Source: Escherichia coli (GTDB taxonomy: Bacteria; Pseudomonadota; Gammaproteobacteria; Enterobacterales; Enterobacteriaceae). From it: a DNA stretch of 64,000 bases. The stretch lies in NCBI RefSeq assembly GCF_041886205.1, contig NZ_CP169029.1, one strand, 5' to 3'. Below are positions 1,323 through 7,300 of the stretch, piece by piece; position 1 is the stretch's first letter, and each line of letters opens with the position of its first letter. Position numbers: made by a program.

Positions 1323-4300
1323 TCAGCATATATACAAAAGATATTTTTCATATGCAACAGGAACCAACTATCATTGAAATCGGTTTTATGAATCAGTTTA
1401 TCACTTTAAATATTTTAAAGAATCACTCATATATATCATATTTTGTGATGTGCTTTGAACTCTTCTCGCTCTAAATCCCCGACACTTTTCTTTATAAAAC
1501 AGTTAAAATAAACAGTATCAATAAGTTATTTGCCAATATTTGAGTGTTACATATTTATTTGGTATCTATTGATTAATATTTCTATATTTAATATATCCTT
1601 ATTTGTTATCTCATGTTTACTCCTTTATAAAATATAATTCTGTTTTATTGATATAAACAAAAAATGAGTAAATATAACATAGACAGAATATTAATACATT
1701 CAAAAAAAATACAATAATATTTATACGGTCTTGTATTTTATTCTTTTTTGTTGTTGCTAGTGGTGCATCCTGTTATTTAATTAATATAGGGATGGTGAAT
1801 TTAATATTTTTGCACAAAATATCATGATAGCACATGCAATAGAAGATCATCAGAGTTAATCTTTTGTGTTGTCTTTTTTACTAGTTATATTTCTGGAGCA
1901 GGTATAAATGAGTTATAAAAATAACTAACACCAGTGAATGAGTGAGTCTCTCCTGAAAAAAATAGTATTGAACACGACTGTTATATCTGATTACATGAAT
2001 TCTAAAATGAGATGATAAATGGAGTAAACTTATGAAATTAAAGTATCTGTCATGTATAATATTTTCCATCTCTGGCGATGGGGCATTAGTTCTGCCCCAG
2101 TTTTCTAATTTTTCATGACGTGTCAGCGAAATAGTAATGACACTATTTACACAATGAACTCCGCAGTTTTTCATACTCTTTGAACAATGTACGTTTGGTT
2201 TTGTAGCCATATTTATCCATTAACATAACTATCCATACAGAATATTTTCCCTCAGTTTTTTCAAGATTAAAGAAAGTATCGCATTCTTCCACCATCAACG
2301 TTCGACAGTCTGATAGCGCTTGTAAAATGACTTCACCAATACTCTGATTATCAGCCTTCGGTGGAAATAAGTGCGAAGGAAAGAGAGGAGCAGCAGCAAC
2401 CATCCCCTCCTTGTCAACGACGGGTAAAAAGTTGCTCTTCCGCAACTTGGGTGGATATTTTCATGCCAGTGGACTCATGCCCCTCTGCCTAAGTAGTTCA
2501 AATCCGGCTCAACCATACATCTGGCGTTTCAGCATCTTCAGGCGATTTACATGACCTTCGACAACACCATTACTCCAGCGACTGCTGATTGCCTCACATA
2601 TAGCCGCAACATCAGCTTCCATCCCCGCCGCCACGCGCCGAAGTTCAGTTGAACCGCTTTTGTGGACTCGAGTGAACCAACTGCTTAGCTGTGATTTATT
2701 TTGGGTTTTCAGAATACGGTAGAACTCGAGTGCCAGTTGCTGCGCTATTTTCAGCTCAGGTTCTTTTTCACACATCAGACTAATAAATCGGGAAGCATAA
2801 TTTTCTTCACCCCTGATTATTCTCCAGGGCATCAACCAGCGGCTTACCCGGGACACTGAAGGAAGTCTGGCGGCAGTAGTAACCGGTGGGCTCCAGCCTT
2901 TACGCCATTTGGCAACAGCATCCCTGAGGATGGTTTCACTGCCTGTAAACCCCCGGGCCACCATTTCCCGCCATATCCGGCTGGCGTTATAATTACCACT
3001 TTCTCGTTGCTCTTTTAACCACTCCCTCCATGGGTCCAGAAGCCCTCGCTTTGGAGGCCGGGTCGACATTTCAGGGAATGTTCCTGAACGCACCCAGCGA
3101 CTGACTGTCCAACTCTGATGCCGTTTTTTGCGGGTTTGCTGTTTAAGGCGTTTCGGACGACGGAGCGATGTTGCAGGCACAGACAGTTCTGGCTCAGGTG
3201 ATTTCTTTGGTGACAACTCACTGGCAACAAGACGTATCAGAGGCATATGTCTGTACATCATTCGTTCAAGCGCATCGCCAATATTTTTTAGCAGGTGCCA
3301 TCGATCGGCCACCTGTCTGGCCTGAGGTGCACCTTCACGTGCTGCTGTCGCATAGACTCCATTGCGATCACGTGAGACAACCTGTATTTCCGGATATTTT
3401 CTGACCCCGATCGCCAACGTACGCTGATCGCGCCCGGGAAGCAGGACGAGGGGACGGTGAGTATCAAGATTGACTATTAACGTACCGTAGCGGTGGCCCA
3501 GATGCCACGCCCACTCATCAATACCGACATGGGGCGAGCCTGACGGTTTCGTCTCCGGGGTATTGATAACCCTGCGAAGAAGAATATCTGCACTACAACA
3601 GAGCCCCACTGCCGTTGCTGCCCATTTTCCTGCCTCACCTCCGACTATTAATTCCAGTTGACGCTGTAAATTTTGTAACGCTTGTGAAGACTGCTGATGT
3701 GAACCGGCGAAGGGAGCTAGTGACCAGCAAAAATTTTTCGTGAACAAGCAGGGTTACGGCAGTACCAGTGGCGGACGGAAAATACAAGCCATAGTGTCTG
3801 GCCTGAGCAGGGTAGATGCTGTACCCAGCAACGACGACAACGTATGAACAGAGTCGCTGCGCTGAGGGCATTTAGGGCATTGTGCTGTTTTGCGTTTTCT
3901 GCGTAGATGGAGGGTTATACCGTCAGACCTAATAACTTGTCGACTGTATTGCCATCCGCAAAGTAACTGTAGAAGTGTCTGAAGAGAGTGCATTACGTTG
4001 CCCATAACTTAAAGCAGCTTAGATCATTGTTCACCAGAAAGTTTCATCCATTTTCTTTCACCCAAGTTGCAGAAGAAGCACTTTTGCACCGTTCGTGACA
4101 CTAATCGACCAGCCTTACTGGAGAGGCTGGTTGGTGATTAACTGGGAGTATTGCAATTAGAGGTGTTCTACAGGCTCAAGAAGGGTGTCGTTAAGGGGAA
4201 GTCATCTTCACAGCGATTTTCAGTCAGTTAGCATTACCGACATTCATTCACCAACTTACCGGAGATAATCAATGTCAAAACCCCGATGGACCATTGAACA

Positions 4301-7300
4301 GAAAAGGCAGCACGTTGCTGCCTGGCGCGCCAGTGGTCTTACACGCCAGCAATACTGTGAACTCAACGATATTCCCTTCACATCACTTCGCGAATGGCCG
4401 CAGGATGTCGCAAAAGCTGAACGCCGGGCAAATGAACCGACCGTTCTTCCCGTTCATATTGCGCCACCACTGCATGCTGATGTACCACAGCCCGTCACGG
4501 ATGAGCCAGTCACGCTCTTCCTTCCCGGTGGAGTACGGATGTGCTGTCAGCCGTCACAACTTACCGATGTCTTCAGGGCGCTCAAATATGCTCAGTCCTG
4601 ATAATGTCTTCATCGCGATTAAACCTGTTGACATGCGCCGGGGCATCGACACACTGACGCAGTATATACAGGATGAACTCCGGTCGACATGGCATGAGGG
4701 AGCCGCCTTCGTCTTTGTTAACAAAGCCCGTTCGCGTATCAAAGTTCTCCGGTGGGATAAACACGGGGTGTGGTTGTGTACCCGCCGTCTGCACAAAGGC
4801 AGCTTCCGCTGGCCACGTGCAAATGACGCTGCCTGGCACCTCACTCCCGACGAGTTTAACTGGCTGATTGCCGGTGTTGACTGGCAGCAGGTTAAGGGAC
4901 ATGACCTGACGAAATGGGTCTGGCAGAATGAACCTGAACTGCGCCCTGAAAACACGCAAAATACACTGCTAACTCAGTGAAAAATAATGAATATCCGTAT
5001 CTGAAGTGGTATACTCCCCTGTATGGATATCTCCGCTCTCAACACCACGAATGACATCGAAAAACTGCGTGCTATGGCACTTGCCATGGTACAAAAAGTC
5101 ATGTCGGAGAATGCCGAAAAAGAGCGGGAATTACTGGAGAAAAGCCGGCGCATCCAGCTTCTGGAAGAAATGCTGAAACTGGTTCGTCAACAGCGCTTCG
5201 GTAAAAAATGTGAAACGCTGGCTGGTATGCAACGCTCCCTGTTCGAAGAGGATGTTGATGCCGATATCGCCGCGCTTACCGCACATCTGGATAAACTGCT
5301 CCCGCAATCCCCTGAAGAAGACGAAAAAGCGCCCCGTTCACGCCCGATACGCAAACCCTTACCGGTTCATCTTCCTCGGGTGGAAAAAATTATCCAGCCG
5401 GACACTGACCATTGCCCCGAATGTGACGAGCCGCTGCACTATATCCGTGATGCGGTGAGTGAAAAGCTGGAGTATATTCCCGCTCACTTCGTGGTGAACC
5501 GTTATATCCGTCCGCAATACAGTTGTCCCTGTTGCCAGAAGGTGTTCAGCGGTGAAATGCCGGCACATATCCTCCCGAAAAGTGCCGTTGAGCCATCAGT
5601 CATCGCACAGGTGATCATCAATAAATACGGTGACCACCTGCCTCTGTATCGCCAGCAACAGGTCTTTGCCCGTTCAGATGTCGGGCTGCCCGTCAGTTCG
5701 ATGGCTGCCATGGTTGGCGCGGCGGGAAGGGCATTACACAAAGCCATTGTCTATGCGCTGTCTCATCGCGTGGAACTAAGCCGCTTCCTGGAAGATGGTG
5801 CGGTGCCGCTGGATAATAATGTGTGTGAACGGGCCATCAAAAACGTGGTCCTGGGCAGAAAATCGTGGCTGTTCGCCGGTTCGCAGATGGCAGGAGAACG
5901 CGCCGCGCAAATAATGAGCTTGCTGGAAACCGCGAAACGCAACGGTCTGGAGCCGCATGCCTGGCTGACAGACGTCCTGATGCGTCTGCCGGAGTGGCCG
6001 GAGGAGCGACTGGCAGAGTTGCTGCCTCTTGAGGGATTTACCTTCTCCGGGTGAGTGATACCTGCCGTCAGGTGTTCGTGCACCGGGCCATAACCTGCCG
6101 TCGGGAGTTAAACGCCTGACGACAGGAAATCAGCAAGGCCAGCAACCACACGGGCTGACAGCGAATCAGAACCTGAATCAGCCCGGAGTCATTCCAAGGG
6201 CAGTACTTCATCACCTGCCACCAATACCCGGGTCAGTACTTCGCGACCTGACGCGATCACCTAACTCAGTACTTCAGAGCCAGCCTCCGGTACCTGCCCG
6301 GCGATCGCCCCTGTACAACAAAATAAATCATCGTCAGACGGCGATCATTCGTATGCTTCACCGATGGACGCCCGAAAAAGCGTCAATATGGGTTCGCCGG
6401 AACGATACACTGAAGCTTACATTTCAGGTAAAGCAGAAATATATTTCCTGAAATACATATCTCTCCATAAAGTAAGAACACTCATAATTCCAAGTTTATT
6501 GTAAAGTTTCTTCTTCTGACAGGAGAGCGTCTTCAGACTACGGTTTCGATAACGAGCTATCTCCGATAATGATTTCCCTGTCAACAACTGACATAAAAGT
6601 AATAATTCCATTTCAGTCAAGCTCCAGGGTATATTAATGCAGACTGTTTGTTTATATTCCTGAATGTATATGGACACACATCTTGTCTTACTGTATACCA
6701 TTCAGCGCTCCTGAAAATCAGCATATTGTAAAAAGGGAATTTTTAAATTTCCAACAACAAATATCACCACAGATTATAACAGAAATATATTTAACATATA
6801 TGGCATTACTACATGGCATTGCTACAACTGATTATCAGTACATCTTTGCTAAAACCATTTAACTCCGTTAAAACCTGACAAGTTCAGCATGACTGAAAAA
6901 CTTTATCAAAGCCAGGAAATCATAACATACAGTAGTGGTGAAATAGTCAATAGTACAGTCTGTTTCACTATTATAAGGACCTCTGTCTGTATTCATTAAA
7001 ATATTTCCGACTGACATACCTGCAGAAAATAACTGCAGCAACAGTTGCTGCCACACTGGCATTTACATTATTCCACATAAACAATGCGATTATTTGCGTA
7101 TTCCGCTCTATTCGATCACAGATTGATCCAAATCATGATCAATTCGAATGCCAAACCGTGATCTATTCAGATGCCATTTTGCAATTATTTATCTCCTGTA
7201 TAGTATTCCCACGCTGACAATGCATTTTCACATCTTTTTAACCACATAAATATTATGTCCTCCAGAGGTAATTTCAGTGACGGTAATATAGCAACGCCAG

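What the first reader, a model, noticed from the sequence alone, without database searches (positions are those of the whole stretch)
4272..6054. IS66 element with internally deleted tnpC
tnpA and tnpB are intact, but TnpC keeps only its N-terminal coiled-coil/zinc-finger part and the conserved C-terminal segment, lacking about 200 aa of central domain. It is likely a non-autonomous IS66 derivative; a separate, divergent IS66 TnpC C-terminal fragment lies at 12182..12559.
Basis: partly seen in the sequence, partly recalled or inferred. Interest (0 to 1): 0.25.

Follow-up and report, generated by a model that had tools for sequence, protein, structure and literature searches.

The report
Dead, internally deleted ISEc49 insertion sequence
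This is a decayed copy of a known E. coli jumping gene (ISEc49, IS66 family) whose transposase lost its catalytic core through a 534-bp in-frame deletion, so it is an ordinary, most likely immobile relic.

Summary
tnpA and tnpB are intact (99% aa identity to canonical copies). tnpC carries a clean 534-bp in-frame deletion between two 4-bp CGGG repeats. It removes TnpC residues 235-412 (178 aa). That segment holds all five beta-strands of the RNase-H-like core, two of the three conserved catalytic acids (D258, D319) and the CWAHARR motif. The leucine zipper, zinc finger, E447 and the C-terminal domain remain.

Full-length homologues are 500-550 aa, so this is not a natural short variant. The copy looks immobile. 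It has no 8-bp target duplication and a 12-bp insertion in its right inverted repeat. Its ends diverge from canonical ISEc49 (86-93% identity against about 99.4% for the interior).

The deletion junction occurs in only 1 of 5,426 complete E. coli genomes. The identical 343-aa protein is on 335 contigs, and all 26 contigs inspected have it at the same locus. The nearest complete chromosome lacks the deleted segment, so that strain has no chromosomal helper copy.

The fragment at 12182..12559 is a separate ISEc8 TnpC remnant. Interest is low.

The parts
4185..6420 (+). Whole ISEc49 deletion derivative (2236 bp; canonical ISEc49 is 2766 bp)
   Evidence: Ends were defined against clean insertions with 8-bp duplications in pOkiPb01695_1 traX (GTATGAAG) and in chromosomal rpnC (AGAGAAAG). 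The window aligns to IS positions 1-1542 and 2073-2760; the last bases before the end were placed by eye across a 12-bp insertion.
4185..4214 (+). Left inverted repeat (GTGTCGTTAAGGGGAAGTC...), one substitution in the first 19 nt relative to canonical
4207..4234 (+). Sigma-70-like promoter match upstream of tnpA (TTCACA-16-TAGCAT, 9 of 12); consensus match only
4272..4601 (+). tnpA, intact (109 aa)
   Evidence: 99.1% aa identity to canonical TnpA; NF047593 score 50.7 against a cutoff of 28
4588..4980 (+). tnpB (IS66 Orf2-type accessory protein), intact (130 aa); overlaps the tnpA end by 14 nt
   Evidence: 99.2% aa identity; PF05717 E=4e-35; NF033819
5023..6054 (+). tnpC with in-frame deletion (343 aa; canonical residues 1-234 joined to 413-521; one further change, D229A)
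5723..5726 (+). Deletion junction: the CGGG microhomology kept once; 534 bp (IS positions 1543-2076) are missing
   Evidence: The junction is present in 1 of 5,426 complete E. coli genomes.
6061..6126 (+). Imperfect hairpin just after the tnpC stop (16-nt arms, 88% complementary)
   Evidence: the sequence is conserved in other ISEc49 copies
6201..6294 (+). Three 33-bp-spaced direct repeats (CAGTACTTC...) in the 3' subterminal region
   Evidence: present in all ISEc49 copies compared; function not tested
6391..6420 (-). Right inverted repeat, ending ...GCTTAC at 6420. It carries a 12-bp insertion (about 6403..6414, placement ambiguous by 3 bp) and substitutions relative to canonical GTAAGCTTCCGGGGAACTC.
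12097..12501 (-). Separate element, not part of the above: ISEc8 right-end remnant encoding TnpC residues 407-512.
   Evidence: 98.8% nt identity to ISEc8 in strain CFS3292 and 96% aa identity; Pfam DDE_Tnp_IS66 tail plus DDE_Tnp_IS66_C
11599..11941 (-). Separate element: left-end remnant of an ISEc23-type IS66-family element (N-terminal part of tnpA)
   Evidence: 98% nt identity to the ISEc23 left end in CFS3292; HTH_Tnp_1

Best explanation
Window 4185..6420 is a degenerate, vertically inherited copy of ISEc49, a catalogued IS66-family insertion sequence. A single 534-bp deletion between two 4-bp direct repeats (CGGG) removed TnpC residues 235-412. This fits replication slippage or microhomology-mediated illegitimate recombination. 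The lost segment holds the five-stranded sheet of the RNase-H-like DDE core, the first two catalytic acids (D258 in HADET, D319 in VVDGHKAY) and the CWAHARR motif. The deletion is a multiple of three, so a 343-aa ORF survives, but it cannot catalyse DNA cleavage or strand transfer.

The copy has also lost the other marks of a mobile element. Its flanking 8-mers differ. Its right inverted repeat is interrupted by 12 bp. Its ends belong to a different sublineage from its interior, which suggests past recombination or gene conversion with another ISEc49 copy.

It now behaves as a passive piece of a heavily IS-ridden genomic island next to katG, fixed in one E. coli lineage.

Shown by the data: the anatomy, the missing residues, the distribution and the lack of a target duplication. 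Inferred: the slippage mechanism, immobility, and the recombinational origin of the mosaic.
For: - Identity and deletion: the window aligns to canonical ISEc49 in two blocks, 99.2% and 93.2% identical, that overlap by 4 bp. In protein terms, residues 235-412 are absent.
- Catalytic residues: in 32 diverse homologues D258 and E447 are invariant and D319 is nearly invariant.
- Fold: the AF2 model (pLDDT 87.4) puts D258 on beta-1 (254-266), D319 just after beta-4 (314-318) and E447 on helix 444-451. All strands from 254 to 338 lie inside the deletion. The best structural matches are the ISCth4 (IS256 family), Hermes and Mu transposases.
- Length of homologues: full-length relatives are 500-550 aa.
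- Canonical ends: canonical ISEc49 is 2766 bp with 8-bp duplications.
- Window ends: the window flanks are CAAGAAGG and ATTTCAGG, and the right repeat has a 12-bp insertion.
- Flanks do not match an empty site: the right flank is a LuxR-type gene cut by the IS end, and the left flank is unrelated to what follows that gene elsewhere.
- Distribution: the junction is unique to strain JML285 among 5,426 complete genomes. The exact protein is on 335 contigs, and all 26 contigs read have the same neighbours.
- No helper: the deleted 534 bp is absent from the JML285 chromosome and from the 64-kb window.
- Mosaic: coding regions are 99.1-99.7% identical to canonical ISEc49, while the 5' end is 93% and the 3' 320 bp is 86-88%.
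- Precedent: mismatched 8-bp flanks as a sign of IS66-IS66 recombination are described in PMC6778807.
Against: - tnpA, tnpB and the remaining tnpC reading frame are all open and nearly identical to active copies. A long-dead element would be expected to have collected stop codons, so the deletion or the interior conversion is probably recent.
- Immobility is inferred, not measured.
- Only 26 of the contigs carrying the protein were read.
- Plasmids of JML285 and the window's true source genome (a close relative, not JML285 itself) were not checked exhaustively for an intact ISEc49.
- The effect of the 12-bp insertion in the right repeat on transposase binding is unknown.
Confidence: 0.88

Rival explanations
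1. The element is non-autonomous but still mobilisable. Its ends are functional, and it can be moved when a full-length ISEc49 TnpC is supplied in trans, like a Ds element.
For: Both terminal repeats are present, and tnpA and tnpB are intact. A second, independent internal-deletion derivative exists in another lineage (P0085/L018), so such derivatives arise repeatedly.
Against: All 26 contigs read show a single shared locus. There is no target duplication. The right repeat has a 12-bp insertion plus substitutions. The nearest complete chromosome has no intact ISEc49. The second derivative also lacks a duplication.
Confidence: 0.07
2. The 343-aa in-frame product is retained because it is useful. 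It would be a catalytically dead protein that still binds DNA and dimerises, and that represses or poisons incoming ISEc49 transposase. Analogues are the P-element KP repressor and Tn5 Inh.
For: The deletion is in frame. It keeps the leucine zipper, the zinc finger and the helices of residues 191-234 in the N-terminal region. The ORF is identical on 335 contigs. A promoter-like site lies upstream of tnpA. A second in-frame allele exists.
Against: An in-frame outcome has a 1-in-3 chance, and gene callers preferentially report in-frame alleles. The carriers look clonal, so identity says nothing about selection. There are no expression or binding data. No ISEc49 was found in the nearest complete chromosome for it to repress.
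Confidence: 0.05
3. The 343-aa protein is a natural short TnpC isoform with an intact catalytic core.
For: It still scores above the NCBIfam IS66 transposase cutoff (236.9 against 180). RefSeq annotates it as a transposase with no pseudogene flag.
Against: The match is split into two stretches. Residues D258 and D319 and all core beta-strands are missing. Near-identical copies carry the extra 534 bp. Relatives are 500-550 aa.
Confidence: 0.005
4. The deletion is an assembly artefact.
For: Repeated IS sequences are often misassembled.
Against: The same junction and protein occur in a complete genome, in several independent draft assemblies and in a metagenome scaffold. In total the protein is on 335 contigs.
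Confidence: 0.005

Closest known systems
ISEc49 (IS66 family, E. coli), e.g. the copies in CFT073, ATCC 25922 and plasmid pOkiPb01695_1
   Same: Same three-gene layout. Coding sequence is 99.1-99.7% identical. Same left repeat and the same outermost right-end bases (GTAAGC...). Same 3' subterminal 33-bp repeats.
   Different: Lacks 534 bp of tnpC (TnpC residues 235-412). The right repeat has a 12-bp insertion. The 5' 87 bp is 93% identical and the 3' 320 bp only 86-88% identical. There is no 8-bp target duplication.
Internally deleted, non-autonomous transposon derivatives (maize Ds, Drosophila KP elements; from my own knowledge)
   Same: An internal deletion removes the catalytic part of the transposase and keeps both ends. 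As in KP, the product keeps its DNA-binding and leucine-zipper regions.
   Different: There is no evidence of mobilisation (single locus, no duplication) and no evidence of repressor activity.
A second ISEc49 deletion allele (P0085, 303 aa; locus L018 2196..4272)
   Same: An independent in-frame deletion that removes the catalytic core, at an imperfect direct repeat. It keeps both IS ends and also lacks a target duplication.
   Different: Different breakpoints (residues 165-394 removed, which cuts into the zinc finger), a different E. coli lineage and a different locus.
ISCth4 transposase (IS256 family, PDB 6xgx)
   Same: Closest solved fold to full-length ISEc49 TnpC: an RNase-H-like DDE core (Foldseek E=1e-7). 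My reading of the model is that the long helical stretch at residues 340-430 is an insertion within that core.
   Different: Only 14% sequence identity and a different IS family. It is used here only to identify the fold that the deletion removes.

Membership tests
IS66 family (ISfinder definition, from my own knowledge: tnpA-tnpB-tnpC, DDE TnpC, terminal repeats starting GTAA, 8-bp duplication) | Three consecutive ORFs tnpA, tnpB and tnpC, with tnpB overlapping the end of tnpA | tested here: met
   ORFs at 4272..4601, 4588..4980 and 5023..6054. Pfam TnpB_IS66, LZ_Tnp_IS66, zf-IS66 and DDE_Tnp_IS66(_C) all match, as do the NCBIfam IS66 TnpA, TnpB and transposase models.
IS66 family | TnpC carries a complete DDE (RNase-H-like) catalytic domain | tested here: not met
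   Residues 235-412 are deleted. D258, D319 and strands beta-1 to beta-5 are missing; only E447 is kept. The parent ISEc49 meets this feature (PF03050 positions 2-283 of 284).
IS66 family | Imperfect terminal inverted repeats | tested here: met
   The left end starts GTGTCGTTAAGGGGAAGTC and the right end starts GTAAGCTTC.... Both are present, but the right one carries a 12-bp insertion.
IS66 family | 8-bp target-site duplication | tested here: not met
   The window flanks are CAAGAAGG and ATTTCAGG. Canonical copies do have duplications: GTATGAAG and AGAGAAAG.
ISEc49 (same IS or isoform) | Near-identity of nucleotide and protein sequence to the reference element | tested here: met
   tnpA, tnpB and the retained tnpC are 99.1-99.7% identical at nucleotide level and at least 99% at protein level. 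The ends are only 86-93% identical, so the copy is a mosaic.
Mobilisable non-autonomous derivative (Ds- or MITE-like) | Copies of the same deletion derivative at several loci, each with its own target duplication | tested here: not met
   The junction is in 1 of 5,426 complete genomes. All 26 contigs read show the same neighbours. There is no duplication.
Truncated-transposase inhibitors (KP, Tn5 Inh type) | Keeps DNA-binding and multimerisation regions and lacks catalysis | tested here: met
   The leucine zipper, the zinc finger and the helices up to residue 234 are kept, and the catalytic strands are lost. This is a sequence-level resemblance only.
Truncated-transposase inhibitors (KP, Tn5 Inh type) | The protein is expressed and lowers transposition of the intact element | not testable with these tools
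   Needs expression data and a transposition assay.

The most novel reading that the evidence does not exclude
The in-frame 343-aa TnpC remnant keeps the leucine zipper, the zinc finger and the C-terminal domain but has no catalytic core. It might be expressed together with intact TnpA and TnpB and act as a dominant-negative repressor, shielding this E. coli lineage from re-invasion by ISEc49. That would be a bacterial IS66 counterpart of the P-element KP repressor. The independent second in-frame allele (P0085) would then reflect recurrent selection for such products.
Probability: 0.05. Interest if true: 0.45.

Novelty: already known. Interest (0 to 1): 0.08.

Why it matters
The biological significance is small. 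Degraded insertion sequences are routine in E. coli genomic islands, and this one belongs to a catalogued IS.

Three practical points follow:
- RefSeq names the 343-aa product an 'IS66 family transposase' with no pseudogene flag, because it still clears the NCBIfam cutoff. IS censuses that count such calls overestimate the number of active copies.
- The unique deletion junction and the unusual right end could serve as a lineage marker for the strains that carry this katG-adjacent island.
- The analysis gives a model-based placement of the IS66 TnpC catalytic triad (D258, D319, E447 in ISEc49 numbering). No solved structure of this family turned up in the sequence search of the PDB.

Tried and rejected
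- Inverted-repeat search inside 4100..6400: it did not find the terminal repeats, because they are imperfect and the right one carries an insertion. The ends were defined instead by comparing copies in different contexts.
- Search for an empty (pre-insertion) site with the joined flanks: none was found in complete E. coli genomes. It returned only ISL3 ends and 73-76% identical LuxR-type genes.
- Search for a parent element with the same unusual 3' end. The best match was 89.5% in complete E. coli genomes and about 88% in plasmids. The Salmonella diarizonae relative has an unrelated 3' region. An exact 20-mer scan of 100,044 species representatives gave one chance hit in Pseudomonas.
- Sequence search of the PDB with TnpC: no relative found. 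Fold search was needed.
- Rfam scan of 3800..6800: only one sub-threshold hit (NRON, 18.9 bits against a cutoff of 50), on the opposite strand at 6682..6769, outside the element.
- Literature: nothing on ISEc49 deletion derivatives. Han et al. 2001 on IS679 is not held in the library.
- Assumption that the window is JML285 itself: rejected. The two are collinear only up to window position 10120.
- Hypermutation as the cause of the divergent ends: judged unlikely. By eye, the substitutions in the alignment are a mix of transitions and transversions, but they were not tallied.
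Full report
**What is there**

The ORF map shows three same-strand ORFs: 4272..4601, 4588..4980 (the start RefSeq annotates) and 5023..6054. Pfam and NCBIfam identify them as IS66-family TnpA, TnpB and TnpC.

A megablast of 4100..6300 against 5,426 complete E. coli genomes finds one full-length 100% match, strain JML285. About 170 other genomes cover at least 80% of the query in one joined match. In the rows listed, the same sequence aligns in two pieces spanning about 2.65 kb, annotated 'IS66-like element ISEc49 family transposase'. In CFT073 that transposase gene is 1566 bp (521 aa), against 1032 bp (343 aa) here.

**The deletion**

Alignment to the CFT073 copy shows one gap of 534 columns. 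The window reads ...GGTTGGCGCGG-CGGGAAGGGC.... The canonical element has CGGG at both edges of the missing block, so the junction sits in a 4-bp microhomology at window 5723..5726.

BLAST against a clean canonical copy gives IS positions 1-1542 matching window 4185..5726, and 2073-2760 matching 5723..6402. In the protein, residues 1-234 and 413-521 remain and 178 residues are lost. The frame is kept, with one extra substitution, D229A.

**What the deletion removes**

- Of the homologues listed at E <= 1e-10, the complete ones are 500-550 aa.
- In an alignment of 32 of them (47-91% identity), D258 (HADET), C339, H342, R344, R345 (CWAHARR) and E447 (NNxCER) are invariant. D319 (VVDGxxxY) is nearly invariant.
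- An AlphaFold2 model built on that alignment is confident (pLDDT 87.4, pTM 0.84). It has strands at 254-266, 272-283, 292-297, 314-318 and 334-338, then a long helical stretch, then helix 444-451.
- This is the RNase-H-like order, with D258 on beta-1, D319 after beta-4 and E447 on a later helix.
- Foldseek against the PDB returns the ISCth4 (IS256-family) transposase first (E=1e-7), then Hermes, Mu, Mos1 and SETMAR.
- No IS66 TnpC structure was found by sequence search.

The deletion therefore removes the whole catalytic sheet and two of the three catalytic acids. The 'natural short variant with an intact core' reading is refuted.

**True boundaries**

The copy inserted in traX on plasmid pOkiPb01695_1, and a chromosomal copy in rpnC, define the element. 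The left end is GTGTCGTTACGGGG..., the right end is ...CCCCGGAAGCTTAC, the length is 2766 bp, and the 8-bp duplications are GTATGAAG and AGAGAAAG.

In the window the left end starts at 4185 and the right end stops at 6420. Read inwards, the window's right repeat is GTAAGCTTC-AGTGTATCGTTC-CGGCGAACC, against canonical GTAAGCTTC-CGGGGAACT. That is a 12-bp insertion plus substitutions.

The flanking 8-mers, CAAGAAGG and ATTTCAGG, do not match. The right flank is a LuxR-type ORF (6417..6701, - strand) that runs into the IS end. It is about 9 aa shorter than its homologue in strain C11. The left flank (about 75 bp, then a frameshifted ISL3 element) is unrelated to what follows that gene elsewhere. 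One side has therefore been rearranged since insertion. Mismatched flanks after IS66-IS66 recombination are documented in Agrobacterium (PMC6778807).

**Mosaic structure**

Identity to the canonical copy by region:

| Region | Identity |
|---|---|
| tnpA | 99.4% |
| tnpB | 99.5% |
| tnpC, N-terminal part | 99.7% |
| tnpC, C-terminal part | 99.1% |
| First 87 bp of the element | 93.1% |
| 6100..6420 | 87.7% |

Other canonical copies are 97.7-100% identical to each other in that 3' region. A third sublineage (L018) differs from both at 86-88% there, with coding identity of 97-98%.

For L018 against the canonical copy, the ratio is roughly what purifying selection on coding sequence would give; this is a back-of-envelope estimate, not a dN/dS calculation. 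For the window copy (0.5% against about 13% divergence) it is not. The simplest reading is that a canonical interior was recombined or converted into older, divergent ends. No parent with these ends was found.

**Distribution and mobility**

- An 80-bp probe across the junction matches in full only JML285 among complete genomes.
- The exact 343-aa protein is nevertheless recorded on 335 contigs.
- All 26 contigs read show the same order: katG, CdiI, ISL3, this element, VasL, NERD/UvrD helicase.
- The window itself is 100% identical over 1023..10054 to three such contigs. It leaves JML285 at 10120, where that strain has IS100.
- A chimeric probe (1 kb of right flank plus the deleted 534 bp) hits the JML285 chromosome once, on the flank only. 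That chromosome therefore has no intact ISEc49. It holds only a second 201-bp left-end remnant.
- The 64-kb window holds no other ISEc49 sequence.

Together with the damaged right end and the missing duplication, this supports a fixed, vertically inherited relic rather than an element that a helper still moves.

**The second fragment**

Window 12097..12501 (- strand) is 98.8% identical to the right end of ISEc8 and encodes TnpC residues 407-512. Window 11599..11941 is the left end of an ISEc23-type element. These remnants are unrelated to the ISEc49 copy: the fragment is 44% identical to the matching part of ISEc49 TnpC.

One curiosity: the ISEc8 remnant starts three codons from the position homologous to the right breakpoint of the ISEc49 deletion. 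I treat this as coincidence.

**Mechanism and rivals**

The best explanation is a slippage-type deletion in a copy that is now immobile (confidence about 0.88). The alternatives are:

- A still-mobilisable non-autonomous element (about 0.07).
- A KP-like repressor function for the in-frame product (about 0.05). This is not excluded, because the leucine zipper and zinc finger remain and a second independent in-frame allele exists (P0085, residues 165-394 deleted). An in-frame outcome is expected one time in three, however, and gene callers favour such alleles.
- A natural short isoform, or an assembly artefact (each below 0.01).

From my own knowledge (Han et al. 2001, J Bacteriol 183:4296; not held in the library), all three IS679 genes are needed for transposition, so loss of TnpC catalysis alone is enough to disable autonomy.

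**Verdict**

The feature is an ordinary decayed copy of a known IS. Interest is low (0.08) and the novelty rating is 'already known'.

Noticed in passing
window 6100-6420 (and 4185-4271): The non-coding ends of this ISEc49 copy are 86-93% identical to canonical copies, while its genes are 99.1-99.7% identical. Three sublineages (window, pOki, L018) differ from one another by 12-14% in the 3' subterminal region. The window copy looks like a recombinant of a canonical interior with foreign ends.
   Followed up: partly
window 6201-6294 and 6061-6126: Three direct repeats spaced 33 bp apart (each starting CAGTACTTC) and a 16-nt-arm hairpin just after the tnpC stop are kept in every ISEc49 copy compared. 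They may be subterminal protein-binding sites or a terminator. There is no Rfam match.
   Followed up: partly
locus L018 2196-4272 (protein P0085): A second, independent in-frame tnpC deletion allele of an ISEc49-like element in another E. coli lineage. It is 303 aa and lacks residues 165-394. The breakpoints lie in an imperfect direct repeat, both IS ends are present, and there is no target duplication.
   Followed up: partly
protein P0092: A 529-aa chimeric IS66-family transposase. Its N-terminal half comes from a different family member (overall 55% identity to ISEc49 TnpC). It is joined at the conserved CWAHARR motif to a C-terminal part that is almost residue-for-residue ISEc49. This is evidence of recombination between IS66-family elements.
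   Followed up: no
window 11599-12501, - strand: A heap of IS66-family debris: an ISEc23-type left end (11599-11941) and an ISEc8 right end (12097-12501), with an IS110-type N-terminal fragment (11909-12148, + strand) between them. The ISEc8 TnpC remnant begins three codons from the position homologous to the right breakpoint of the ISEc49 deletion.
   Followed up: partly
window 6417-6701, - strand: An unannotated LuxR-type HTH ORF (94 aa) runs into the right end of the IS and takes its stop codon from it. It is about 9 aa shorter than its homologue in strain C11, to which it is about 76% identical at DNA level.
   Followed up: partly
window 5023-6054; RefSeq WP_089567686.1: The catalytically dead 343-aa product still scores 236.9 bits against the NCBIfam IS66 transposase cutoff of 180. 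RefSeq therefore lists it as an ordinary 'IS66 family transposase' without a pseudogene flag.
   Followed up: yes
window 10120 onward; L001/L012: The window is not JML285 itself. It is 99.96% identical to JML285 up to 10120, where JML285 carries an IS100 insertion and then different content. It is 100% identical over 1023-10054 to contigs of GCA_023185555.1 and GCA_053928925.1 and to a metagenome scaffold (ERZ28604754).
   Followed up: yes
L006 (strain C25); proteins P0037, P0076-P0079; L012 2820-3027: ISEc49 copies or remnants repeatedly abut contact-dependent-inhibition genes. Examples are a hemagglutinin-repeat gene cut by the IS, gene calls that fuse TnpC to a PT-VENN domain, and a 201-bp left-end remnant next to a VENN pre-toxin gene in JML285. 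This could be a target preference or simply shared island residence.
   Followed up: no
window 2509-4106, - strand: A frameshifted ISL3-family element (ORFs 2509-3747 and 3754-4005) ends about 75 bp to the left of the ISEc49 left repeat. The intervening ~75 bp matched nothing else in complete E. coli genomes.
   Followed up: partly
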